DNA from: Podospora anserina
Lineage: Eukaryota
Direction: 5' to 3'
Assembly: GCA_017654855.1 (NCBI GenBank)
Contig: CM030336.1
Location: 1,550,001 to 1,614,000 of the forward strand
DNA length: 64,000 nt
The position numbers and the translations under genes were made by a program. Shown here piece after piece: positions 3-9,125 of this stretch (position 1 is its first letter; the number at the start of each line of letters is the position of its first letter). Under the pieces are notes generated by a model that had not been told where the DNA came from, did no database searches, and worked only from the letters and a program-made list of their open reading frames with translations.

Positions 3-809
3 TCTGGCTTTCGGGATTGGAGAAGAGGTTCAATCCGCGCAGTTCAATCATTCGTCACATCTCCAGGAGACGAAAGGGATGTAGTAGGCCACGGCACACA
101 TGTAGCGTGGCTTGCTCTCAAGACAGCCCTCAACGTTGAAGTATACATCGCGAAGGTCTCCGCCGGCAAACAGTTCGATGACAACACAGCCGTGGTGAAA
201 GCAATCGATTGGGCCATGGATCAAGAGGTGGACATTATGGTCATGTCGTTCGGCTCTGCATACATAGATAAGCGGGTGAGCGACGCCATTGACCGTGCTG
301 TAACCACTCGACCGCACCCAACACTTGTCTTTGCGGCGGCGTCAAACTCGGGGCTCAACAGCCGGCCATCGTTTCCTGCCACCCACGACAAGGTTATTGG
401 TGTATATGCCTTGGATGGATACGGAAACGATAACGGGGGCTTGAACCCGTCTCGACAACCAGGAGGCACTTATTTTGGCACATTAGGTGTCGGAATAGAG
501 ATGCTGTGGAACAACAAAAAGGAGGCCCGATCCGGAAGCTCATATGCTGCGCCAATAGCCGCTGGTATCGCCGCGAATTGTCTGGTTTGGCTGGAACACA
601 TGCTTAAGAAGGGGTACTTCAGCCAGGACCAGTACACGTGGCTAAGGACGATTGAGGGGATGCGTTATATGCTCAGGAAGCAGGCTATGGGCTCTAACGG
701 CGATAGAGTGGGGATACTATCATTGGCTCCATGGGTACTATGGAGGCGCGATCTTACTGATGTAGAGGTGTGTACCATTTTGAAGGAAGGCATGCCGCTT
801 TTTCGATAG
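3..809 (+). CDS. Subtilisin-like serine protease (peptidase S8), C-terminal catalytic part; 5' end lies outside the window
   Basis: Frame open from base 3 (same frame as ORF 192..809): catalytic-His motif D-V-V-GHGTHVA, MSFG, oxyanion motif FAAASNSG, catalytic-Ser motif SGSSYAAPIAAG; stop TAG at 807-809. Confidence 0.92.
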   Translation, partial: SGFRDWRRGSIRAVQSFVTSPGDERDVVGHGTHVAWLALKTALNVEVYIAKVSAGKQFDDNTAVVKAIDWAMDQEVDIMVMSFGSAYIDKRVSDAIDRAVTTRPHPTLVFAAASNSGLNSRPSFPATHDKVIGVYALDGYGNDNGGLNPSRQPGGTYFGTLGVGIEMLWNNKKEARSGSSYAAPIAAGIAANCLVWLEHMLKKGYFSQDQYTWLRTIEGMRYMLRKQAMGSNGDRVGILSLAPWVLWRRDLTDVEVCTILKEGMPLFR

Positions 810-1077
810 CCCCATGGGACTTTTAGAATCGTTGAAACACAAGGTAATGAAGGGGAGCGGGGTTTCTCCGTTGTTACGGTAAGGTATTTAAGCTGCGCTT
901 AATCGATCAAAGTCTGAGGCGGGTTAATGGAAGGTGCTTCATTGTGGAACAAGTCATATGAAGACCTGGAACATGTTGAAGCGATCAGTTCATTGCGCAG
1001 GGATACCGCAGAAAGACACGAGAACCTACAAACAATATTGTATCAAAGTGTCGATGTATCGGGCAGAACCTTACTTA

Positions 1078-1890
1078 TCAGTCCTCAAACTCCCTAGCAA
1101 CCGCCCACTGAACCCCATCCGAATCCTCAAGAACCTCAACCTCATCCTCCTCACCCACAAAATCATCCACCGACTCCACCTTCCACTCTTGCACATCCTC
1201 CCTCTCATCACCCAACATACTCGTCCCCTTCAAACTCAACTCATGTTGCATCCTCCCCCTCGCAAACTTAATCCTCCTCACCTGAAACGCCAGAACAAAC
1301 TCGCTCGCTGTATCAAAAGCGACACCCTGGAGTCTATTCCTCCCAATTTGCAGCAACGGCTTCACCTCCGCCACCCCCTCCGGCCCCGACACCCCCACTC
1401 GCGCATCTACCTCCAGTGTCCTCTCCAACGACACCGACGCCCCCCTGGCAATCTTGACACCAGTAACGATATACACCGGCACGCGGTATTTTCTCTCCGT
1501 CAAATACCCCTTTACATCATCCTGCTCCGATACCCGCTGTATATACTCCTCCGTCGCGACAAACTCTCCTGTTTCGAGCTCGGGGACTTGTATCACGTCG
1601 TTGGAGCCGCGCTCGAGAAATAAACCGAGGTCGGCGCCCATCGGGAGGTTGAGGCCGGCGAGGAGGGTGGTCCAGAGGCCGAAACGGCCGGTGAGGAGGT
1701 CTTTCCGCATGGAGGAGAAGGAAGTTACTGTTGTTGGGGGTAGCAGGTCGTCGGGGTTGATGGGGAGTCGCGATTTTCGGTTTAGGGGTATCAAGTCCGG
1801 GCTGAGGGGGTCGGGGAGGATGTCGCCGAGGCGGAGGGAGGAGGGGGAGGTGGTGAAGTTGGGGGCTAAGATGTAGGTTTTCTTTGCCAT
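1078..1890 (-). CDS. Fungal gasdermin (RCD-1/HET-Q1-like pore-forming cell-death protein), 270 aa
   Basis: Intronless ORF with the fungal gasdermin signature blocks: N-terminal TYILAPNF...LRLGDILPDPLSP..PLN, central VPVYIVTGVKIARGA, FVLAFQVRRI, then KGTSML followed by a 44-aa acidic tail; adjacent to an S8 protease gene as is typical for this family. Confidence 0.88.
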   Translation of the reverse strand: MAKKTYILAPNFTTSPSSLRLGDILPDPLSPDLIPLNRKSRLPINPDDLLPPTTVTSFSSMRKDLLTGRFGLWTTLLAGLNLPMGADLGLFLERGSNDVIQVPELETGEFVATEEYIQRVSEQDDVKGYLTERKYRVPVYIVTGVKIARGASVSLERTLEVDARVGVSGPEGVAEVKPLLQIGRNRLQGVAFDTASEFVLAFQVRRIKFARGRMQHELSLKGTSMLGDEREDVQEWKVESVDDFVGEEDEVEVLEDSDGVQWAVAREFED

Positions 1891-2718
1891 TGGTGCGGTG
1901 GGAATGGTGATGGTGAGCGAAAGTTGGTTGGAATGGAGGTGGTAAGGGGGGGCGGTAGAGCGTTTGTTGTGAGGAGTCTTGACGGTGAAATCGTTTGGTG
2001 CGGGGTGTTTTCTCGTCAGCTTTGGGGCTTACACCAATGGCGCTGTATGCCGAGCCTGGGTGAGCTTCAGGTCCAGCTTCGCGACAAGTCATGGTCGGGG
2101 ATGGATGAATGGCCAGTAATTGACTGCTAGCCATTCTTGACCTGAACGATGTAGGTACTCATTATCCCCTCAGCTGAGTACCGAGGCAAACCAGACCAGG
2201 CGATCATATTTGCGTGCTTATTTCATAATACACGGGAGAGTTGGTCTTGGCTCCTAAAGGCTAAGGCAGCGGACGGCTGTTACACCGAGCTTGCTGTAAT
2301 ACTGCTTATTTTCGATATTAGCCTCGGACTTGTGGTTTCAAGTTGTTACCTCCTGTGTTACTGTCGTTAGATACTCGCCATGCTCGGATAATTGCGCTTA
2401 TGATCAAGATGAGTGATCATCTCTCCGAGATCATCATGGTGATCGCTGTTTTGGCAAAGAGATACCGTCTACGGCGACACCGTGTGGCTTGCAGTCTTAC
2501 ACCAAGAACTAGAGAAGATTTCGAAGCCATCAAAAATAGCAAAAGATCAGAATATAGAGAGAATGGAGATAACGATGCTGTCAAAGCAAAGTATAAAGAC
2601 TCATGGTTCTCCATCCCATCCTTTCGTCTCTCATCATCACCACCAGCTCATTCACCAACCCAGCTTTGACAACCACTTCTCAAGACACCCCAAGACAACC
2701 GCTTCAACCAATCTCAAA

Positions 2719-3402
2719 ATGAAGTTCTTCACCACCCTCCTCTCCATGGTAACCCTCACCTCCGCCGCCGCAGTAAACTACGATTTCTACGCCCCTGTCG
2801 ACGCCCTCGCCAAACGTGAAGCCGCCGCAGCCCTCAGCTTCGACCCTGCCCACGACCCCCTCTCCGCCCGCGGTGACGAAGACGTCAACATCATCACCGC
2901 TTCTCTCGACGACGGAGCCGAAAAGGTTGAAATCATCGTCGACGGTGTTTCCCAGGGGTATCTGATCGTCAGCCCCGATGGCGATGGTAACCCCACCCCT
3001 TTTTACCCCCTTAAACTTCCAAATGAAACTAACCCATCCCTCCCACAGTCCAAGGCTTCGACGGCAACGGCACCTTGGTCGACCTCGACGCCGTCCTCGC
3101 CGCTCGTGACGTCGAGCACGTTGACAAGCGTGCTCTTGGCTGGCTCCAGGTTCTGGCTAGACTTGCTCCCATCATCACAAAGTTTGGCCAACGGGTTGTC
3201 AACTGGTTGAGGTGTGTTGGTGCTTGGAGTTTGATTTTGGATTGTGCTCCCAAGGTACGAACCCCCGGTGGTGTACGTTGAGATGTGATGGCTGACAGTT
3301 TGGATTTTTACCTAGCTCATCAACTGCGCTACTTATGGCAAGGCACCTTGGGAGTGCATTGCTGGGATTAACTGCATTGGAAAGGCTGCTAGGAACTGCT
3401 AA
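2719..3402 (+). CDS. Secreted pre-pro-peptide; KR-processed 69-aa cationic, 6-Cys C-terminal peptide (3 exons)
   Basis: ATG 2719 with signal peptide MKFFTTLLSMVTLTSA; introns 2987-3048 (GTAACC..CTAAC..CAG) and 3255-3315 (GTACGA..CTGAC..TAG) join the frames; AKR and DKR dibasic sites; ends ...CIGKAARNC-TAA at 3400-3402. Confidence 0.8.
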
Positions 3403-3860
3403 ACAGACTGTCGAGGTTGCTCTGGAGGGAGACTGAGATTTGTGGGCGAGGTGTTATGAGGTGTTTGCTTGGATGGTTGGACTGCGTGGTTTTGTTAGTT
3501 GTCTTTGGCTTCGCTGTGTGTTTAAGATATGATATTCTTCAGGCAGGTGGTGCGGTGGCCTGGTCAAGACATGTCAGCTGAGTGAGTTGAAAACAGTTTA
3601 TCGTTGTGATGCCATACCGGTCCTTCATCTTGTGAGCTGGGCTGCCCAATCAGAGCTTTTCCCCTCTTGTGACTGAGACCTTTTCATTGGGGAAGAGCAC
3701 AGCCACATCTCGATCGTGAGCGTTAGCCCCGTATTCAGGGGCTAGTAAGCAGGGGTAATGTTTCCCCGCTGGAACATAGATATTCTTTGAAGAAGGCTTG
3801 TCACTTTGAAAGCTTTCCACATCCTCAAAAAAACAAAGCAAGATCACTTCAGAAGACATC

Positions 3861-6254
3861 ATGAAGAAGCTATTCCGAAAGCTCAAAGACAAAAAACCCA
3901 CTGGCAATGACCAGGGTCTCTCGGAGACAACCTCTCTCCGGGAAGCTCTCCCCTCCATTGCTCAAGACATCACACCGCCTGCTCCCATCCAAACTCCGGT
4001 TGCTCAACCATCACCCCCTACAACTACAGCACCACCCATAGAAGTCCTCCCATCAAGCAACATCTGTCAAATCTGCTTCCACCTCGACGCAACACACGCC
4101 CCTAGAGATGGCAACCTCAACACCAAAGACCCTTCCTGGGCCGAACTTGAGTACAATCTCCCACCGGACACACATGCCGCCAAACTTGTCCCCAAATCAG
4201 AGGATCTCATCAATTCGGCAAACGGCGGCTGCATGCACTGTTTCATCGTGCGCACAGCGTTGAATGCCATCCATCCAGGCTGGGAGAATGAAAAGACCAT
4301 CCTCCACGTTTTCCTGGCGCCTGGTGTGCCCGTGGTGGTGCGACTAGAGTTCGGAAGCTTGATCACGACGCATATGAGCCGGGAGGAAGCGTTGCAGACT
4401 TATGGCTTTGATGTCCCGGTCAAGTTCACGGTCATTGTTCGTGATCCTGAGAAGCCCAGTGTTGATGTCGAGATTTATCGACCACTGTCGCCAAGCCCCT
4501 CTGGAGGCTCTGGCACCCCTGGACCAGGTAAATACCCCTCTTCCCCGTATTGTCAGAAGCTTTATCTGTTCTGTTTGCCGATTCGTCGTGTGTTAGGCTT
4601 CGACTTGTCATCCCTTGTACGGCACGTCGGCTTCGGCGAGGAGATCCCACAGTGTGCCGGTAATGAGGACTCGTTAAATTTCATCAACCAACGAGTGAAC
4701 GAGTGCATCACATCCCATAGCTGTGAAGGCAACAACAAGCTGCTTCCACAGTTGCCTAGCCGGGTGATCTGGGTTCAGGCGCACACGCCGAGCCGTATTC
4801 AGCTTGTTGAGCCCACTGGAATCCGCGCCAAGTACATAGCTCTCAGTTACTGCTGGGGTTCCGTCTCGCCAGATACCTATCTCACTGATGCACGCAACCT
4901 GGAGTCAAGGAAAGCGGGGATCAACTACGATGAGCTTCCGCCGCTTCTGCAAGACGTTGTAACGTGTGTCCGCGCCCTCGGGATCGAGTATCTGTGGGTT
5001 GACCGGCTGTGTATCGTCCAAGGCGATGGTGGTGACTTTTCCACGCAGGCACCCAAGATGGGTGACATTTACGGGGATGCCACACTCACCATCGCAGCCG
5101 CCTCTGGGGAGTCTGAAAATGATCGCATTCTTCTTGAAAGAGACACCAAGGCCGGCCCGTTCTCGCTTGACCTAAAGCTCAAGGGCATGGGTACGCTAAC
5201 GCTGAAGGTCCGTCAACGAACGCACAAGATTGAAACCGAATATGTGGGAGGAGACTATGGTCGGGTTTCAACACGGGCCTGGATCTGGCAGGAACGTCTT
5301 CTCTCGTCTCGCACCGTGTTCTTCACCCCCCGTGCTCTCAAGTTTGAATGCCATCACCACTCGGTTTGGCAAGGTTATGCCCCTGGCGTTGTTGGAAACT
5401 CGTGGTCAACACACGTCGAGTTGGCCTCCAGCTCACACAACGCATGGCTACGGTTGCTCATCGAGTTTATGAAGCGCAACATTACCAACGCATCGGACCG
5501 GCTGCCCGCCATCGAGTCCGTCATGAAGCGAATCGCAGTCAACACCGGTTGGAGCCCTTTTTGGGGCGTCTTCGAGGAGAAGCTTGTCGAAAGCCTTGGC
5601 TGGAGCGCCATAGACCTGAAAACATCTTCGGGGCAGGCTAGCTGCCGTATGAATCCTGGACACTATGCTCCGACGTGGAGTTGGGCGAGCGTTGATGGTG
5701 AGATTACGTATATCCATGTGTTGACCGACCAGCACTACGCGCCCTTGCACCAGGTTGATCCCCTCATGTACGAACTGCAATGTCGAGATCTTGATCGTGC
5801 CACTGGCGCTATTACAATGATCGGAAGCTATCTCATTGGCGGCATTCGATGTACCATCGAGCCGAACGCATCGTACAGCGAAGAGAGTGAGATGACCCGT
5901 GAGGTGGGCAAGTACCGCTACACCCACAACGTCCGGGTATCTGGACAGCATCCGGACTTCCTCTTCAATCCTGATGTCCCATTGATGTCGGTGGAGGGTG
6001 ACCCAAATCAGCCATACTCGGGCTCGGCGGTAAGAGCGCCGTACGGGGTCAACAATGCAACAGAGGAATGGACCGGAAATTGTTTGGTCTTGTTGGTTGC
6101 GAGACGAAACAAAAGGTCACTGGCTCTTCTGCTGGGAGCTTCGCTGAGAGATATCGATGGAGCGGCGTGGGAACGTATTGGACTATCCACCTCGATTGAT
6201 GTGTCTGTCTGGGACGAGGAACATGTCAAGACGGGGCCAGTTAGGGTTGTATGA
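3861..6254 (+). CDS. HET-domain (PF06985-like) protein
   Basis: Motifs KYIALSYCWG, YLWVDRLCIVQGD, MGDIYGDATLTIAA, TRAWIWQERLLS, DRLPAI, APTWSWAS; probable in-frame 69-nt intron 4528-4596 (GTAAAT..TTAG). Confidence 0.93.
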   Translation: MKKLFRKLKDKKPTGNDQGLSETTSLREALPSIAQDITPPAPIQTPVAQPSPPTTTAPPIEVLPSSNICQICFHLDATHAPRDGNLNTKDPSWAELEYNLPPDTHAAKLVPKSEDLINSANGGCMHCFIVRTALNAIHPGWENEKTILHVFLAPGVPVVVRLEFGSLITTHMSREEALQTYGFDVPVKFTVIVRDPEKPSVDVEIYRPLSPSPSGGSGTPGPGKYPSSPYCQKLYLFCLPIRRVLGFDLSSLVRHVGFGEEIPQCAGNEDSLNFINQRVNECITSHSCEGNNKLLPQLPSRVIWVQAHTPSRIQLVEPTGIRAKYIALSYCWGSVSPDTYLTDARNLESRKAGINYDELPPLLQDVVTCVRALGIEYLWVDRLCIVQGDGGDFSTQAPKMGDIYGDATLTIAAASGESENDRILLERDTKAGPFSLDLKLKGMGTLTLKVRQRTHKIETEYVGGDYGRVSTRAWIWQERLLSSRTVFFTPRALKFECHHHSVWQGYAPGVVGNSWSTHVELASSSHNAWLRLLIEFMKRNITNASDRLPAIESVMKRIAVNTGWSPFWGVFEEKLVESLGWSAIDLKTSSGQASCRMNPGHYAPTWSWASVDGEITYIHVLTDQHYAPLHQVDPLMYELQCRDLDRATGAITMIGSYLIGGIRCTIEPNASYSEESEMTREVGKYRYTHNVRVSGQHPDFLFNPDVPLMSVEGDPNQPYSGSAVRAPYGVNNATEEWTGNCLVLLVARRNKRSLALLLGASLRDIDGAAWERIGLSTSIDVSVWDEEHVKTGPVRVV

Positions 6255-6814
6255 GTGTGACGGAGGGGGCTCTGTACAACGAACTGCATTCGGCTGGCTT
6301 CTTCTGGGGTGCTCGTACTGGCCGATTTGTGAGTCATCTACAAATGATCAACATCAAGTACTGGAAAAGGTGGACTCACCAAAACAATGACCCGATTGTG
6401 ATTTGCAACTGAGCCGCGGATAAGTCAACGGAGGTGGTTTATAAGAGAGTGCCTCCGGAAACAAAACAACGAGAGATTTTAGTGAAATGGCGGAATCCAG
6501 CAGAGCGGGGTAGGTAGAGTGTAATAAGGCAGGCAGGGCAGGAGCAACATTGACAATAGAAGCATGACGCAACGAAGAGCCGCTGCAGCCTTGACATGCT
6601 GCCTGCCTTGTGAACTACTACTCTGGCACGTAATGACTGGTCTTTTTCTGCCCACTGTCTGACAGTAACTCGCGACCTGGAGCGAAAGCTGAGGAGTGAA
6701 CTTGAAGGACCAGTGCCCAACACCAAACAACACCTTCTTCCCCTCGCGTTTGCCCTTCACCCAACTTTCCCCCGCCAACACGCCGCTTCGAGACAACTAC
6801 GTCCAGCAAACAAC

Positions 6815-7339
6815 ATGATATCTCCGGTTCAGGCACCATCTCAAGCCCATGGCATCGGTCTTCGCCGTCTGCCCACTGAGCTTCGGTACCAGATCTACCG
6901 TCCGGTTTGGGAGCCGCGGGTCATCTTTCTGGGAGACAAAACATGCTACGAGTTCCCTGACAACCTGCCTGGTAGATCGCGATGCGACACACAAAGGCCA
7001 CCAGTTACATTCCACATCAGCTACGAGGCCGGAGAGGAAACGCTGAGACACTATCACAAGTATTTCATCATCGCGCATGATCCGTCTAGAAGGCTCAAGT
7101 TGTATGGATATGTTAATCCGCACCTCGACATTCTACATTTTGACCAATCCATAACTCCCGAACACTGGTCTTCGTATTTGTTCCAGGACCTCGAACTTCC
7201 TCTCAACTTTCGAATCGAACCCCCTATTACTCGCCCCATCCTCCGCCTCTCGCTCAGTCCCAGCGTCCCTGCCCGTGACAAGAAGAAAAAGCCAACGAAT
7301 ATGCTACGTTCAGGAAACTCTTTGACCCTTGGTAGGTAG
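6815..7339 (+). CDS. 2EXR-domain protein, short/truncated paralogue
   Basis: LRRLPTELRYQIY...PRVIFL...PPVTFHISYEAGEETLRHY...YVNPHLDILHF; aligns by eye with the N-terminal third of 7599..9125 and ends soon after PILRLSL. Confidence 0.65.
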   Translation: MISPVQAPSQAHGIGLRRLPTELRYQIYRPVWEPRVIFLGDKTCYEFPDNLPGRSRCDTQRPPVTFHISYEAGEETLRHYHKYFIIAHDPSRRLKLYGYVNPHLDILHFDQSITPEHWSSYLFQDLELPLNFRIEPPITRPILRLSLSPSVPARDKKKKPTNMLRSGNSLTLGR

Positions 7340-7598
7340 TTTAAAGCGTTTGCAGCCTGAAGCTTAATGTTTGACTTTGAGTTGCTAGTTAGACTTTAGA
7401 AATCATAAAGAAAAGAGACAACTGTTTTGCCTCAGTTGACTCACATTGATAGTTTGCGTTGTGCCTTTCATTGGCACTCTGACCTTCATGAGTCAACATT
7501 AGACTTCACTTGGTTTTATAAACCAGCTCTTCCCGCTGCCATCGTGTCATTCATATAACCTTCTATTTGCATATATGTCATATTTCCGCATTTGAACC

Positions 7599-9125
7599 AT
7601 GCTACCGCGAAGGAACTCAAACCACCAGCGACCGGTGCTCTCTCAGCAATTAGACCTCACGGGACAGTCTGGCCTGCCGTCTGGTTTCAGGTTTCGTTCC
7701 CTACCAGTTGAGTTGAGATTGCAGGTTTATCGAGAAGCATGGAAGTCTACCATCATCCTGGTGTCGTTCCACGGATGTTGGCAGCCGCTTCAAGTTATGA
7801 AAAGGGGCAAAATGCCTGCCACCTTACATCTATGCTTGGAAGCAAGGCAAGAAACTCTGAAATATTATCATCTGTACAAAGCATCAGCAGCAAAACTCGT
7901 TGCCCCGAAGATTTCTTTTACTCAATGTGGCTACATTAACCCAAATCTCGACATCATACATCTCGACGTTCCCTTTGGATCAGGCCCTGTGGAAGGGCAC
8001 ATTCAGATTGAAAGACTTAGTCCGGCTACCCTGAGATTGACATTGGGCCGTGCCCTAGTACCAAGTGCAGTACTGAAGTGGTTTGCTGAGAAACCCCAGC
8101 TGTTCGCGGGGCTTAAGACCATTGATTTCTGGGTCTGGACCCCGTCTCGAATGTTTGAAAACGGAGTTACGGAACGATACCGAATCTGCCGTGTCCCGCC
8201 CTCAACACCACTTACTCCGGTGGTTCATCGAAAAAACATCGTTTACAAGCCAGCAGCAGTCGATAGTCGCTTGTGCCCAAATTCCCACTGTCAGACGCCA
8301 ATCTGGCACTGGAAATACGACCCTGAAGCCAGCTATTGTGTCGCCTCTACCGGCCCTTATATCATCTCGCAGCGCCCCTTTGTTCGCGGAGAGGAAATTA
8401 AGCTTCCTGATCCAGACGGCTCCGCCAGGGTTGTGATGCCCTCCATCAGCTTTGATTGGAAAGCCACCCGCGCCCGAGCTTTGTTGCGGGAGACAGACGT
8501 GCTCCTCTTTGACCCGGGCGATGGGATGAAGAGGCGTGAATGGGTCATTTGCAAGGTTGTTGATCCATCCGAAATACCCAACAAACTCGTTATACAGCTG
8601 GGCGCCCGATACCTGCTATATTTGGACTGGGATTTGGCCCACTACGCGACACTTCTTCAACAACGGGAGATCACAGCCCTAATGGAACAACATCCTGATA
8701 CAAGTCAATTTCTGACCGAGATGCTTCCTATGTTGGACCATTTGAGCATAACTAGGTACTCCAGGTCCCCGCCGCTTGGTCCAGATTGGTATTACACTAA
8801 GTACCGTGACTGGGAGGGTTGTAAAGATGTTGCGCATGGTGTCTGCGGTCCTGGGTGGTTGTATGCGGCAGGCCAGAGCTTCCCTTTACAGGGTCTGCAT
8901 CAAAGCGGTGTGGAAGAGCTTTATCCAAAAGCAAGGGAGAACAGGATCCGCAAGGTGATGAAATCCCGGGAAGTTATTGACAACGGAGGAAAGGGATGCC
9001 AGATTTGTCAAGGGTTTCTACCAATTAACTCACCTGGAAGACCTTGTCAGATGTGCTGGGAAATTGTTCCATCAGTGCGAAGCTGGGAAACTGAATGGTC
9101 AACTTGGAAATGGGCACCTTTGTGA
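7599..9125 (+). CDS. 2EXR-domain protein with Cys-rich C-terminal region, 508 aa
   Basis: FRSLPVELRLQVYREAW...MPATLHLCLEARQETLKYY...GYINPNLDIIHL = 2EXR-type motif set; C-terminal CxxC pairs (CQIC, CQMC). Confidence 0.75.
   Translation: MLPRRNSNHQRPVLSQQLDLTGQSGLPSGFRFRSLPVELRLQVYREAWKSTIILVSFHGCWQPLQVMKRGKMPATLHLCLEARQETLKYYHLYKASAAKLVAPKISFTQCGYINPNLDIIHLDVPFGSGPVEGHIQIERLSPATLRLTLGRALVPSAVLKWFAEKPQLFAGLKTIDFWVWTPSRMFENGVTERYRICRVPPSTPLTPVVHRKNIVYKPAAVDSRLCPNSHCQTPIWHWKYDPEASYCVASTGPYIISQRPFVRGEEIKLPDPDGSARVVMPSISFDWKATRARALLRETDVLLFDPGDGMKRREWVICKVVDPSEIPNKLVIQLGARYLLYLDWDLAHYATLLQQREITALMEQHPDTSQFLTEMLPMLDHLSITRYSRSPPLGPDWYYTKYRDWEGCKDVAHGVCGPGWLYAAGQSFPLQGLHQSGVEELYPKARENRIRKVMKSREVIDNGGKGCQICQGFLPINSPGRPCQMCWEIVPSVRSWETEWSTWKWAPL

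What the first reader, a model, noticed from the sequence alone, without database searches (positions are those of the whole stretch)
2719..3402. Kex2-released cationic 6-Cys peptide with a bacteriocin-like amphipathic N-terminus, next to the gasdermin
Seen (requires two introns, so it is absent from the ORF track): signal peptide, acidic pro-region, DKR, then the 69-aa mature peptide ALGWLQVLARLAPIITKFGQRVVNWLRCVGAWSLILDCAPKLINCATYGKAPWECIAGINCIGKAARNC (8 K/R versus 2 D/E, 4 Trp, 6 Cys). Inference: the first ~27 aa form an amphipathic helix reminiscent by eye of leaderless bacteriocins such as lacticin Q/aureocin A53 (G-[WF]-L-x-V...K-[YF]-G-x-[KR]-x-V-x-W). This suggests a membrane-lytic antimicrobial or toxin. 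It is transcribed divergently from the gasdermin across ~830 bp, so the two may be co-regulated as a defence unit.
Basis: partly seen in the sequence, partly recalled or inferred. Interest (0 to 1): 0.72.

Follow-up and report, generated by a model that had tools for sequence, protein, structure and literature searches.

The report
Secreted cationic six-cysteine fungal peptide gene
This is a real, expressed Podospora gene for a secreted precursor that probably releases a 69-residue positively charged, disulfide-stapled helical peptide, the first look at an unnamed family found across filamentous ascomycetes, while its claimed kinship to bacteriocins and partnership with the neighbouring gasdermin are not supported.

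Summary
Exons 2719-2986, 3049-3254 and 3316-3402 (+) give a 186-aa protein: signal peptide, acidic pro-region (net -14), D-K-R, then a 69-aa domain (8 K/R, 2 D/E, 4 Trp, 6 Cys, net +6). Both introns appear as GT..AG joints in RNA-like assemblies, beside intron-retaining contigs, and two annotated relatives use the same splicing.

An exhaustive profile search found 40 cluster representatives. Named ones come from Sordariomycetes, Dothideomycetes, Leotiomycetes, Lecanoromycetes, Penicillium and a bdelloid rotifer. The six Cys are invariant. Sixteen of 24 aligned members have K-R at the site and 22 of 24 have a net positive C-terminal domain. There is no Pfam family, no relative of solved structure and no fold match.

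Best reading: a Kex2-type-processed secreted peptide, probably membrane-active. That activity is inferred, not shown. Kinship with leaderless bacteriocins found no support. The neighbour is the known gasdermin Q1-5, whose described partner is the S8 protease on its other side. Peptide-gasdermin linkage was seen only in Podospora and probably Cercophora samala.

The parts
2501..3611 (+). Approximate transcript of the peptide gene. Contig ends cannot fix a true 5' end.
   Evidence: RNA-like contigs begin at 2501/2502 (X2, X1) and 2547 (X3). The X1 contig ends at 3611 followed by a loose A10. No RNA-like cover in bins 2264-2387 or 3628-3751, while DNA-like run X15 covers everything.
2563..2718 (+). 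5' leader holding two in-frame upstream ATGs (2563, 2575) and an out-of-frame 39-codon uORF (ATG 2603, ending at 2722). It is probably non-coding.
   Evidence: P0004 is annotated from the 2563-type ATG. The leader-encoded stretch is 47 of 52 identical with a 4-residue length difference, against 184 of 186 in the CDS. The P. comata, C. samala, A. backusii and T. verruculosa models start at the M-K-F Met.
2719..2772 (+). Signal-peptide-like N-terminus (18 aa): M-K, an uncharged hydrophobic core, then A-A-A.
   Evidence: A simple hydropathy test finds such an N-terminus in 20 of 24 aligned family members; the other 4 are fragments. No dedicated signal-peptide predictor was available.
2773..2986 (+). 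Exon 1 part of the acidic pro-region. It includes an early A-K-R (residues 31-33) and the first strands of a predicted beta-sheet domain.
   Evidence: In the AF2 model the strands are at P0004 112-118, 124-130, 133-140 and 146-150, with pLDDT about 90-92.
2987..3048 (+). Intron 1 (62 nt, GT..AG, CTAAC at 3029).
   Evidence: Joint in X3, one 59-nt contig; same junction in P0004 and P0008. Retained in other contigs of X1, X2 and X3.
3049..3131 (+). Exon 2 part of the pro-region, ending in V-D-K-R (K-R codons at 3126-3131), the proposed Kex2-type cleavage site.
   Evidence: The Arg is nearly invariant in the alignment. The two residues before the site are KR in 16, RR in 2, KK in 1, and GR, QR, TR or DR in 5 of 24 members.
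3132..3254 (+). Mature domain, first 41 residues: amphipathic cationic helices, the invariant Gly of the [KR]-[FYW]-G motif, and Cys 1 and 2.
3255..3315 (+). Intron 2 (61 nt, GT..AG, CTGAC at 3292).
   Evidence: Joint in X1 (534-nt contig) and a loose end in X2. Retained in contigs of X2 and X3.
3316..3402 (+). Exon 3: the last 28 residues of the mature domain (Cys 3-6, the A-P-W-x-C motif) and the stop codon.
   Evidence: tblastn places distant members on it, including the rotifer protein P0047 at 53.6% identity over 28 aa.
1081..1890 (-). Neighbour, not shown to be part of the system: a gasdermin-like gene (270 aa), the counterpart of P. anserina Pa_5_3510 'Q1-5'.
   Evidence: 98% identical to QC764_503510. 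A profile of its relatives matches Neurospora RCD-1 gasdermin-like chains at E 1.7e-7. Passages in PMC8851545 name Pa_5_3510 as a distant het-Q1 homologue. Equating the two locus tags is my inference from the tag numbering.
3..806 (+). Neighbour: the C-terminal part of an S8 subtilase gene, convergent with the gasdermin. It is the likely het-Q2-like partner of the gasdermin.
   Evidence: Pfam Peptidase_S8, E 1.2e-15; PMC8851545 passages.

Best explanation
The locus is a three-exon gene for a secreted prepropeptide. It belongs to an unnamed family that is spread through Pezizomycotina. Proposed mechanism, step by step. (1) The N-terminal signal peptide takes the precursor into the ER; this is inferred from the sequence. 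(2) The C-terminal domain folds into a small all-helical bundle held by three disulfides; this rests on the prediction and the six invariant Cys. (3) A folded, strongly acidic beta-sheet pro-domain accompanies the cationic domain and probably keeps it harmless or soluble; this is inferred from charge complementarity only. (4) A Kex2-type convertase cuts after the conserved K-R in a low-confidence linker and frees the 69-aa, +6, Trp-rich domain; this is inferred from the motif and its conservation. (5) Outside the cell, the amphipathic N-terminal helices of that domain bind and perturb the membranes of competing microbes, so it acts as an antimicrobial or killer-type peptide; this is inference and no activity was tested. 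The position next to gasdermin Q1-5 is taken as neighbourhood within a region rich in non-self-recognition genes, not as a required partnership.
For: Gene and expression: exon translations, canonical introns, spliced RNA-like contigs, a poly(A) end, and uncovered intergenic bins. Family: 40 cluster representatives at E<=1e-3, 20 of them at <=1e-10, out of 1.84 billion proteins. Named members come from five ascomycete classes and one bdelloid rotifer (the class of Penicillium is from general knowledge). Several unnamed members sit on contigs of about 950 nt whose proteins run uninterrupted across the window's exon junctions. Conserved design in 24 aligned members: 6 invariant Cys plus one invariant Gly; K-R in 16 and another dibasic pair in 3; a net-positive C-terminal domain in 22 of 24 (median +7, median length 69); an acidic stretch before the site in 18 of 19 members with at least 60 residues there; a signal-like N-terminus in 20 of 24. 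Structure: pro-domain strands at pLDDT about 92 and an all-helical mature domain at pLDDT 84-92, with blocks of 69-71 around the K-R site. The mature domain modelled alone gives five helices at mean pLDDT 78.5. Amphipathicity reaches a moment of 0.71, and GRAVY is +0.56.
Against: No activity, secretion or cleavage data exist here. No homologue of known function was found, so the antimicrobial role rests on composition and analogy. RNA-like contigs that retain intron 1 or intron 2 are as common as spliced ones, and intron 1 splicing rests on a single 59-nt contig. The runs are only guessed to be RNA. The leader contains two in-frame upstream ATGs in good context. If those were used, the hydrophobic segment would be internal and secretion uncertain. 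Two of 24 members have a mature domain with net charge 0 or -2, and 5 of 24 lack a dibasic pair. The structure models rest on shallow alignments of 22-24 sequences.
Confidence: 0.45

Rival explanations
1. It is a secreted small cysteine-rich protein with a non-lytic role, for example a surface-active or cell-wall-associated protein, a signalling ligand, or an effector-like binder. In this reading the two domains may stay together after cleavage.
For: The pro-domain is predicted as a confidently folded unit (pLDDT about 92), which is more than a spacer would need. Weak fold-search alignments of the whole model span residues 102-222, across both domains. No similarity to any known toxin or antimicrobial was found. 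Small secreted Cys-rich proteins are common in Podospora and have many roles (PMC3689799, PMC4835503; passages only).
Against: The opposite charges of the two parts, the near-invariant basic site between them and the strongly amphipathic Trp-rich helices are the usual hallmarks of pro-forms of membrane-active peptides. Rotifer-type members keep only the C-terminal domain.
Confidence: 0.3
2. The peptide gene and gasdermin Q1-5 form one co-regulated defence unit driven from a shared bidirectional promoter.
For: The start codons diverge 828 bp apart. The RNA-like contigs of the two genes leave only about 320-560 bp uncovered between them, and both genes are present in all 3 RNA-like runs laid. 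The genes are adjacent in P. pseudoanserina by locus tags 503510 and 503515. In Cercophora samala both orthologues are listed on a single contig of the same length, 51,565 nt.
Against: The described partner of fungal gasdermins is the adjacent protease. For Pa_5_3510 the paper reports clustering with a het-Q2-like protease gene, and an S8 gene lies on the gasdermin's other side here. No orthologue of this gasdermin was listed for T. verruculosa or A. backusii, which have the peptide (a word-based search with 12 hits, so weak evidence). The gasdermin's next relatives are in Fusarium, Xylaria and Hirsutella. None of the named peptide-family members came from those genera (30 of the 40 were looked up). 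Contigs cannot measure co-expression.
Confidence: 0.1
3. The main product starts at the upstream in-frame ATG (2563), as annotated for P0004. That would give an N-extended protein whose hydrophobic segment acts as an internal anchor or is not used for secretion.
For: RNA-like contigs begin near 2501, so the mRNA contains ATG 2563 in an A(-3)/G(+4) context, in frame with no stop before 2719. P0004 is annotated that way.
Against: The extension diverges about ten times faster than the CDS between two sibling species and differs in length. Four other species' models and the distant family members start at the Met before the hydrophobic core.
Confidence: 0.05
4. The helical N-terminus is a true homologue of leaderless class IId bacteriocins (the aureocin A53 / lacticin Q type), acquired from bacteria.
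For: Only the by-eye [KR]-[FYW]-G-x-[KR] motif within a cationic amphipathic helix, plus my own recollection that those bacteriocins carry a similar K-Y-G-x-K stretch.
Against: None of 24 members matched a bacteriocin Pfam model at E<=1. No bacteriocin chain appeared in three PDB sequence searches at E<=10. tblastn against 72,556 plasmids found nothing at E<=10. The 40 hits of the exhaustive search include no recognisable bacterial peptide. An unrelated enzyme matches the motif at E 1.5. The fungal protein has a signal peptide, a pro-domain, introns and six Cys.
Confidence: 0.02

Closest known systems
Candidalysin / Ece1p of Candida albicans (abstracts seen in the search listing: PMC5784256, PMC12153327; the rest recalled)
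   Same: A secreted fungal precursor cut by Kex2 after K-R to release an amphipathic alpha-helical, membrane-damaging peptide.
   Different: Ece1p is a polyprotein of several short peptides without a disulfide framework (recalled). Here a single 69-aa domain with six invariant Cys follows a folded acidic pro-domain. No sequence relation was seen, and activity is unknown here.
Yeast and virus-encoded killer preprotoxins such as K1, K2 and zygocin (recalled, not read here)
   Same: The pre-pro layout, Kex2 processing, and a cationic or hydrophobic helical product that acts on target-cell membranes.
   Different: No match among predicted viral protein structures (best Foldseek E 2.5). This is a chromosomal gene with introns, and the size and Cys pattern differ.
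Fungal defensin-like peptides such as plectasin and copsin (recalled)
   Same: Signal peptide, acidic pro-piece, K-R, then a small cationic peptide with three disulfides (plectasin).
   Different: Those have a cysteine-stabilised alpha-beta fold. This domain is predicted to be all-helical and is about 30 residues longer.
Leaderless class IId bacteriocins, the aureocin A53 / lacticin Q type
   Same: A cationic, Trp-containing amphipathic helix with a K-[YF]-G-like turn.
   Different: They are made without any leader and lack cysteines (recalled). No sequence or fold match was found.
Victoriocin of Helminthosporium victoriae and IDI-2 of P. anserina (passages of PMC3689799 and PMC4835503; details of victoriocin processing recalled)
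   Same: Small secreted Cys-rich fungal proteins. Victoriocin is antifungal, and idi-2 (157 aa, with signal peptide) is induced during the non-self response of the same fungus.
   Different: I could not obtain either sequence with the tools, so a relationship is untested. No Bipolaris/Cochliobolus protein was among the 30 of 40 family hits whose names I looked up.

Membership tests
Leaderless class IId bacteriocins (aureocin A53 / lacticin Q type) | Made without a leader or signal sequence and used unprocessed (feature recalled) | tested here: not met
   The precursor has a signal-like N-terminus and a 99-aa pro-region before K-R.
Leaderless class IId bacteriocins (aureocin A53 / lacticin Q type) | Detectable sequence relation to the family | tested here: not met
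   0 of 24 members hit a bacteriocin Pfam model at E<=1. No bacteriocin chain among the 5, 1 and 2 hits at E<=10 of three PDB sequence searches. No plasmid tblastn hit.
Leaderless class IId bacteriocins (aureocin A53 / lacticin Q type) | Compact saposin-like four-helix fold (feature recalled) | tested here: inconclusive
   The model is an all-helical bundle, but no bacteriocin was among the rows shown. Best VIA Z was 4.4, to a designed protein, and best Foldseek E was 5.2.
Kex2-processed secreted fungal peptides (a functional class, not one homologous family) | N-terminal signal peptide | tested here: met
   M-K, an uncharged hydrophobic core, then A-A-A. 20 of 24 members pass a hydropathy test. 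No dedicated predictor was run.
Kex2-processed secreted fungal peptides (a functional class, not one homologous family) | Conserved dibasic K-R or R-R immediately before the released peptide | tested here: met
   D-K-R in the window. KR in 16, RR in 2 and KK in 1 of 24 members, and the Arg is nearly invariant.
Kex2-processed secreted fungal peptides (a functional class, not one homologous family) | Actual cleavage by the convertase and release into the medium | not testable with these tools
   Needs proteomics or a kex2 mutant.
Cysteine-stabilised alpha-beta defensins (plectasin type) | A helix pinned to a beta-sheet by disulfides | tested here: not met
   Both models of the mature domain contain helices only.
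Saposin-like proteins | A SapB-type Pfam match or a saposin fold with its six-Cys pattern | tested here: inconclusive
   No Pfam hit in 24 members. No saposin among the listed fold matches. The Cys spacing here is C-x9-C-x6-C-x9-C-x5-C-x7-C, all in the C-terminal 42 residues.
PepSY domain (the name UniRef gives to the two Coniosporium apollinis members) | A match to a Pfam PepSY model in the pro-domain | tested here: not met
   0 of 24 members at E<=1. The whole-model fold search gave nothing above Z 3.7.
Fungal gasdermin / protease cell-death cluster (het-Q1 / het-Q2-like) | A gasdermin gene next to a protease gene | tested here: met
   This applies to the neighbours, not to the peptide: a gasdermin-like ORF convergent with an S8 gene, and the paper's passages on Pa_5_3510.
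Fungal gasdermin / protease cell-death cluster (het-Q1 / het-Q2-like) | The peptide gene is a conserved third component of such clusters | tested here: inconclusive
   Adjacent in P. pseudoanserina, and on a contig of the same length in C. samala. No gasdermin orthologue was listed for two other species that have the peptide. Fungal genome context could not be fetched, because two metagenome scans found nothing.
Victoriocin / IDI-2 | Sequence similarity to victoriocin | not tested
   No sequence was obtainable through the tools. Only passages of the papers were read.

The most novel reading that the evidence does not exclude
This gene is the first examined member of an undescribed family of Kex2-released, triple-disulfide, all-helical cationic toxins found across Pezizomycotina. 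The family would have a fold unlike any solved structure and a folded acidic pro-domain that acts as a built-in inhibitor. Its toxin domain alone would have been captured by bdelloid rotifers through horizontal transfer, which would make it a new class of eukaryotic host-defence or killer peptide.
Probability: 0.3. Interest if true: 0.7.

Novelty: new variant of a known kind. Interest (0 to 1): 0.5.

Why it matters
Fungal gene-encoded antimicrobial peptides of known type are few: defensin-like peptides, AFP/PAF-type proteins, killer toxins and candidalysin. A conserved family with no Pfam model, no homologue of solved structure and no fold match would add a new scaffold for antimicrobial discovery, and a new example of a pro-domain that may neutralise a peptide. 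It has a clear pro-peptide design, expansions in some fungi and copies in rotifers. For Podospora biology, it adds an unannotated or mis-annotated secreted gene to a locus studied for gasdermin-based cell death. It also shows that three of five listed orthologue models lack the last three cysteines because intron 2 was missed.

Tried and rejected
- Whole genome of the window: not held.
- Sequencing runs: no listed holder is on record as RNA. X1-X14 are only guessed to be RNA.
- ESM Atlas look-alikes for the mature part and for the pro-domain: no usable hit.
- Pfam on the exons and on 24 family members: only sub-threshold noise, such as DUF5961 at E 0.014-0.15.
- PDB sequence searches with the family profile, P0045 and P0002: only chance-level hits at E 0.87-8.5.
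- Fold searches. Whole model: VIA wide best Z 3.7, Foldseek best E 0.12. Mature domain: VIA wide best Z 4.4, Foldseek PDB best E 5.2, BFVD best E 2.5. A family that was not listed is not thereby excluded.
- Complex prediction, pro-domain against mature domain: no verdict (median score 0.27, mark 0.34, alignments not used). This counts neither for nor against binding.
- tblastn of P0045 against plasmids: no match.
Scans of metagenome contigs with A2 and with P0037 found no relative. Intron conservation and synteny in distant members therefore remain untested.
- Paralogues in the window: none; tblastn with 10 family members found only this locus.
- Earlier findings of this scan: nothing by place, sequence or words.
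- Literature: full-text searches for Pa_5_3515, 3520, 3500 and 3505 gave only unrelated papers. A search on Kex2 / cysteine-rich / antimicrobial peptide / PepSY / fungi listed nothing on this family. I therefore found no description of this family in print with those two searches; supplements were not read.
- Depths were not used to compare expression, because contig depths cannot rank genes.
Full report
**1. The observation**

The window is from a fungus of the Podospora anserina species complex. The best database match to exon 2 is a Podospora pseudoanserina hypothetical protein at 100% identity. The neighbouring gasdermin-like ORF is 98% identical to one from the same species.

Joined in a script, the exons form a 561-nt CDS of 186 codons plus stop.

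The last 69 residues follow D-K-R. They hold 8 K/R, 2 D/E, 4 Trp and 6 Cys, with net charge +6, pI 9.34 and GRAVY +0.56. The 99 residues between the 18-aa signal-like N-terminus and the site have net charge -14 and pI 4.05.

Both introns are short (62 and 61 nt) and GT..AG, with CTAAC or CTGAC 20-24 nt before the acceptor.

**2. Is it spliced and expressed?**

Twenty public runs of one organism hold the stretch. Fourteen are small assemblies (16-29 million letters), guessed to be RNA, and hold 0.79-0.92 of the sampled words. Six assemblies of 31-36 million letters hold all of them.

I laid three of the RNA-like runs, from three studies, and one DNA-like run on 900-4600. The results were:
- **Intron 2.** The joint 3255-3315 is in a 534-nt contig of X1 that ends at 3611 followed by loose A's. 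A 10-letter loose end in X2 fits the same joint.
- **Intron 1.** The joint 2987-3048 is in one 59-nt contig of X3.
- **DNA-like run.** Neither joint is in X15.
- **Cover.** The RNA-like runs leave bins 2264-2387 and 3628-3751 uncovered, while X15 covers everything. This fits RNA rather than DNA.
- **Against a simple picture.** Contigs that retain intron 1 (X1, X2, X3) or intron 2 (X2, X3) are present too.

Independent support for the model comes from proteins. P0004 (P. pseudoanserina) and P0008 (Triangularia verruculosa) are annotated with exactly these junctions. Distant family proteins that run uninterrupted across the junctions map onto the three exons by tblastn.

**3. The start codon**

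RNA-like contigs begin near 2501. The leader therefore contains in-frame ATGs at 2563 and 2575 and an out-of-frame 39-codon uORF from 2603 that overlaps the main ATG. P0004 is annotated from the upstream ATG.

I take 2719 as the start for three reasons:
- The leader-encoded stretch is 47 of 52 identical with a length difference between the two sibling species, against 184 of 186 for the CDS.
- Four other species' models begin at the M-K-F Met.
- In 20 of 24 aligned family members the protein starts with a Met followed by an uncharged hydrophobic core; the other four are fragments.

This remains an inference.

**4. A family, not an orphan**

Word-based searches found only close Sordariales relatives: 5 hits, then 8. 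A profile of three correct models, scored against 1.84 billion representatives, found 40 proteins at E<=1e-3, with 20 at <=1e-10 and 6 at <=1e-30. One hit is the window's own unspliced ORF. Another, a 3,084-aa protein at E 8.6e-4, matches only part of the pro-domain and is probably unrelated.

I looked up names for 30 of the 40. The named ones are:
- Verticillium longisporum and V. albo-atrum
- Parathielavia hyrcaniae (two proteins)
- 'Thermomyces stellatus' (two proteins; the taxonomy places it as Microascus stellatus, Sordariomycetes)
- Clonostachys rosea
- Dactylonectria macrodidyma
- Torrubiella hemipterigena
- Coniosporium apollinis and C. tulheliwenetii (Dothideomycetes)
- Pseudogymnoascus (Leotiomycetes)
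- Pleopsidium flavum (Lecanoromycetes)
- Penicillium capsulatum and P. cataractarum
- Rotaria sp. Silwood2, a bdelloid rotifer

The others come from unnamed environmental or run-derived contigs. Several of those contigs are about 950 nt long, close to the size of this mRNA.

**5. The conserved design**

In a 24-sequence alignment the only invariant columns are the six Cys and one Gly, the Gly of a [KR]-[FYW]-G turn. The Arg before the mature domain, three more Gly and the Pro of A-P-W-x-C are nearly invariant.

Other features of the 24 members:
- The two residues before the site are KR in 16, RR in 2, KK in 1 and non-dibasic in 5. One of the five is an alignment shift of an R-R.
- The C-terminal domain has a median length of 69 and a median net charge of +7, and is positive in 22 of 24.
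- The 80 residues before the site are net acidic in 18 of the 19 members that have at least 60 residues there.

Many members, including this one (A-K-R at residues 31-33), also have a basic or dibasic site shortly after the signal peptide. The acidic domain may therefore itself be released as a separate piece.

**6. Structure**

AlphaFold2 on the 24-row alignment gave mean pLDDT 72. This figure is lowered by the 56-residue annotated extension of P0004.
- The pro-domain has four strands and a helix at about pLDDT 92.
- Confidence drops to blocks of 69-71 around the K-R site.
- The mature domain is all-helical at 84-92.

A second model of the mature domain alone (first row P0045) shows five helices at mean pLDDT 78.5.

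Neither model matches anything solved or any predicted viral protein:
- Whole model: VIA wide best Z 3.7, Foldseek best E 0.12.
- Mature domain: VIA wide best Z 4.4 to a de novo designed helical protein, Foldseek best E 5.2, BFVD best E 2.5.

Given the tool's own calibration, these are chance-level values. They do not prove that the fold is new.

No Pfam model matches any of the 24 members. This includes PepSY, the name UniRef attaches to the Coniosporium proteins. No PDB sequence is related.

**7. How it most likely works**

- **Shown:** a transcribed, spliced gene; a conserved precursor design; opposite charges on the two parts; a conserved basic site in a low-confidence linker; and a predicted disulfide-rich helical domain with a strongly amphipathic N-terminal part (moment 0.71 for residues 10-27).
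- **Inferred:** ER entry, disulfide formation and cutting by the Kex2-type convertase; shielding of the cationic domain by the acidic pro-domain until cleavage; and action on the membranes of other microbes.

The closest working analogues are candidalysin, released from Ece1p by Kex2 (abstracts in the listing), the killer preprotoxins, and the pre-pro forms of fungal defensins (both recalled). None of them is related in sequence or fold.

I put 0.45 on the full chain, about 0.9 on 'real secreted-precursor gene of a conserved family', and about 0.75 on cleavage at K-R.

**8. The bacteriocin idea**

The amphipathic helix is real. The proposed kinship with leaderless bacteriocins found no support:
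- No bacteriocin Pfam hit in 24 members.
- No bacteriocin among the PDB hits at E<=10 for the profile or for two single sequences.
- No plasmid tblastn hit.
- No bacterial peptide among the exhaustive-search hits.

The best chance hit of the window's own exon 2 was a hexosaminidase helix with the same kind of K-Y-G..V-V-x-W stretch at E 1.5. This shows how little the motif means.

The defining traits of that bacteriocin class, no leader and no cysteine (recalled), are the opposite of what is seen here.

**9. The gasdermin neighbour**

The ORF 1081-1890 (-) is a genuine gasdermin homologue. A profile of it and eight relatives matches the Neurospora RCD-1 chains at E 1.7e-7. Its P. pseudoanserina counterpart carries tag QC764_503510.

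Passages of Clave et al. 2022 (PMC8851545) name Pa_5_3510 'Q1-5' as a distant het-Q1 homologue clustered with a het-Q2-like protease gene. The S8 gene at 3-806 (+) fits that partner. Equating the two tags is my inference.

The peptide gene (tag 503515 in P. pseudoanserina) lies on the other side, with its start codon 828 bp from the gasdermin's.

Evidence on linkage beyond the Podospora complex is thin:
- In Cercophora samala both orthologues are listed on a single contig of identical length, 51,565 nt.
- For T. verruculosa and Apiosordaria backusii, which have the peptide, no gasdermin orthologue appeared among the 12 hits. This was a word-based search, so the evidence is weak.
- The gasdermin's further relatives are in Fusarium, Xylaria and Hirsutella. 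None of the named peptide-family members came from those genera.

I could not fetch fungal genome context. Contigs cannot show co-expression. The 'defence unit' is therefore an open but unsupported idea, at 0.1.

The window as a whole is rich in genes linked to non-self recognition, with two HET-domain ORFs and two 2EXR ORFs. Neighbourhood alone is weak evidence there.

**10. Novelty and verdict**

The kind of thing, a convertase-released secreted cationic Cys-stabilised peptide, is known. This family, its predicted fold, its folded acidic pro-domain and its presence in rotifers are not described in anything I could find (searches, no supplements read).

A possible relation to victoriocin / IDI-2 could not be tested, because no sequence was obtainable.

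I rate it a new variant of a known kind, with interest 0.5. It is a good candidate for bench work, but its function is still only inferred.

Noticed in passing
Proteins P0047/P0068 (Rotaria sp. Silwood2), P0046 and P0053 (unnamed sources): Bdelloid rotifer proteins carry the six-Cys C-terminal domain, 40-44% identical to fungal members. They lack the beta-sheet pro-domain and have G-R instead of K-R before it. P0068 is listed on 7 contigs, the longest 777,455 nt. This looks like a horizontal acquisition from fungi, but no tree was built and contamination was not excluded.
   Followed up: partly
Proteins P0055, P0069, P0070, P0071 (Torrubiella hemipterigena): At least five gene records of the family (VHEMI10701, 10704, 10713, 10718, 10719) lie on one 197,936-nt contig. 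One model (473 aa) is named as containing a reverse-transcriptase domain. This suggests a local expansion in a repeat-rich region of an insect pathogen.
   Followed up: no
Proteins P0005 (P. comata), P0006 (Cercophora samala), P0007 (Apiosordaria backusii), P0024, P0025, P0039 and others: Many annotated models read through intron 2 and end in unrelated tails, so they lack the last 28 residues with three of the six Cys. P0004 instead starts at an upstream ATG. The gene is systematically mis-modelled in public annotations.
   Followed up: partly
window 966-1029 (-): A 64-nt GT..AG intron on the minus strand lies 49 nt downstream of the gasdermin stop codon (1078-1080), so it is a 3'-UTR intron. 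It is joined in 3 of 3 RNA-like runs and not in the DNA-like run.
   Followed up: partly
window 4528-4596 (+): Loose ends in X1 and X3 at 4528 continue with the sequence that starts at 4598. This indicates a 69-nt in-frame GT..AG intron inside the HET-domain gene (ORF 3810-6254), which otherwise reads as one open frame.
   Followed up: partly
window 2603-2722 (+): A 39-codon upstream ORF overlaps the main start codon of the peptide gene, in addition to two in-frame upstream ATGs. Translational control of the peptide is possible.
   Followed up: no
window 2809-2817 (+), residues 31-33: A second basic site (A-K-R) lies about 13 residues after the signal peptide. It recurs as K-R, R-R or x-R in many family members. 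The acidic beta-sheet domain may therefore be released as a separate product rather than discarded as a simple spacer.
   Followed up: no
window 6614-9122 (+), 37542-39278 (+) and elsewhere: The window holds two 2EXR-family ORFs, a second HET-domain ORF, an MFS transporter, a Kelch-repeat ORF, a DUF3433 ORF and an FAD-binding ORF. This is a variable, recognition-gene-rich neighbourhood.
   Followed up: no
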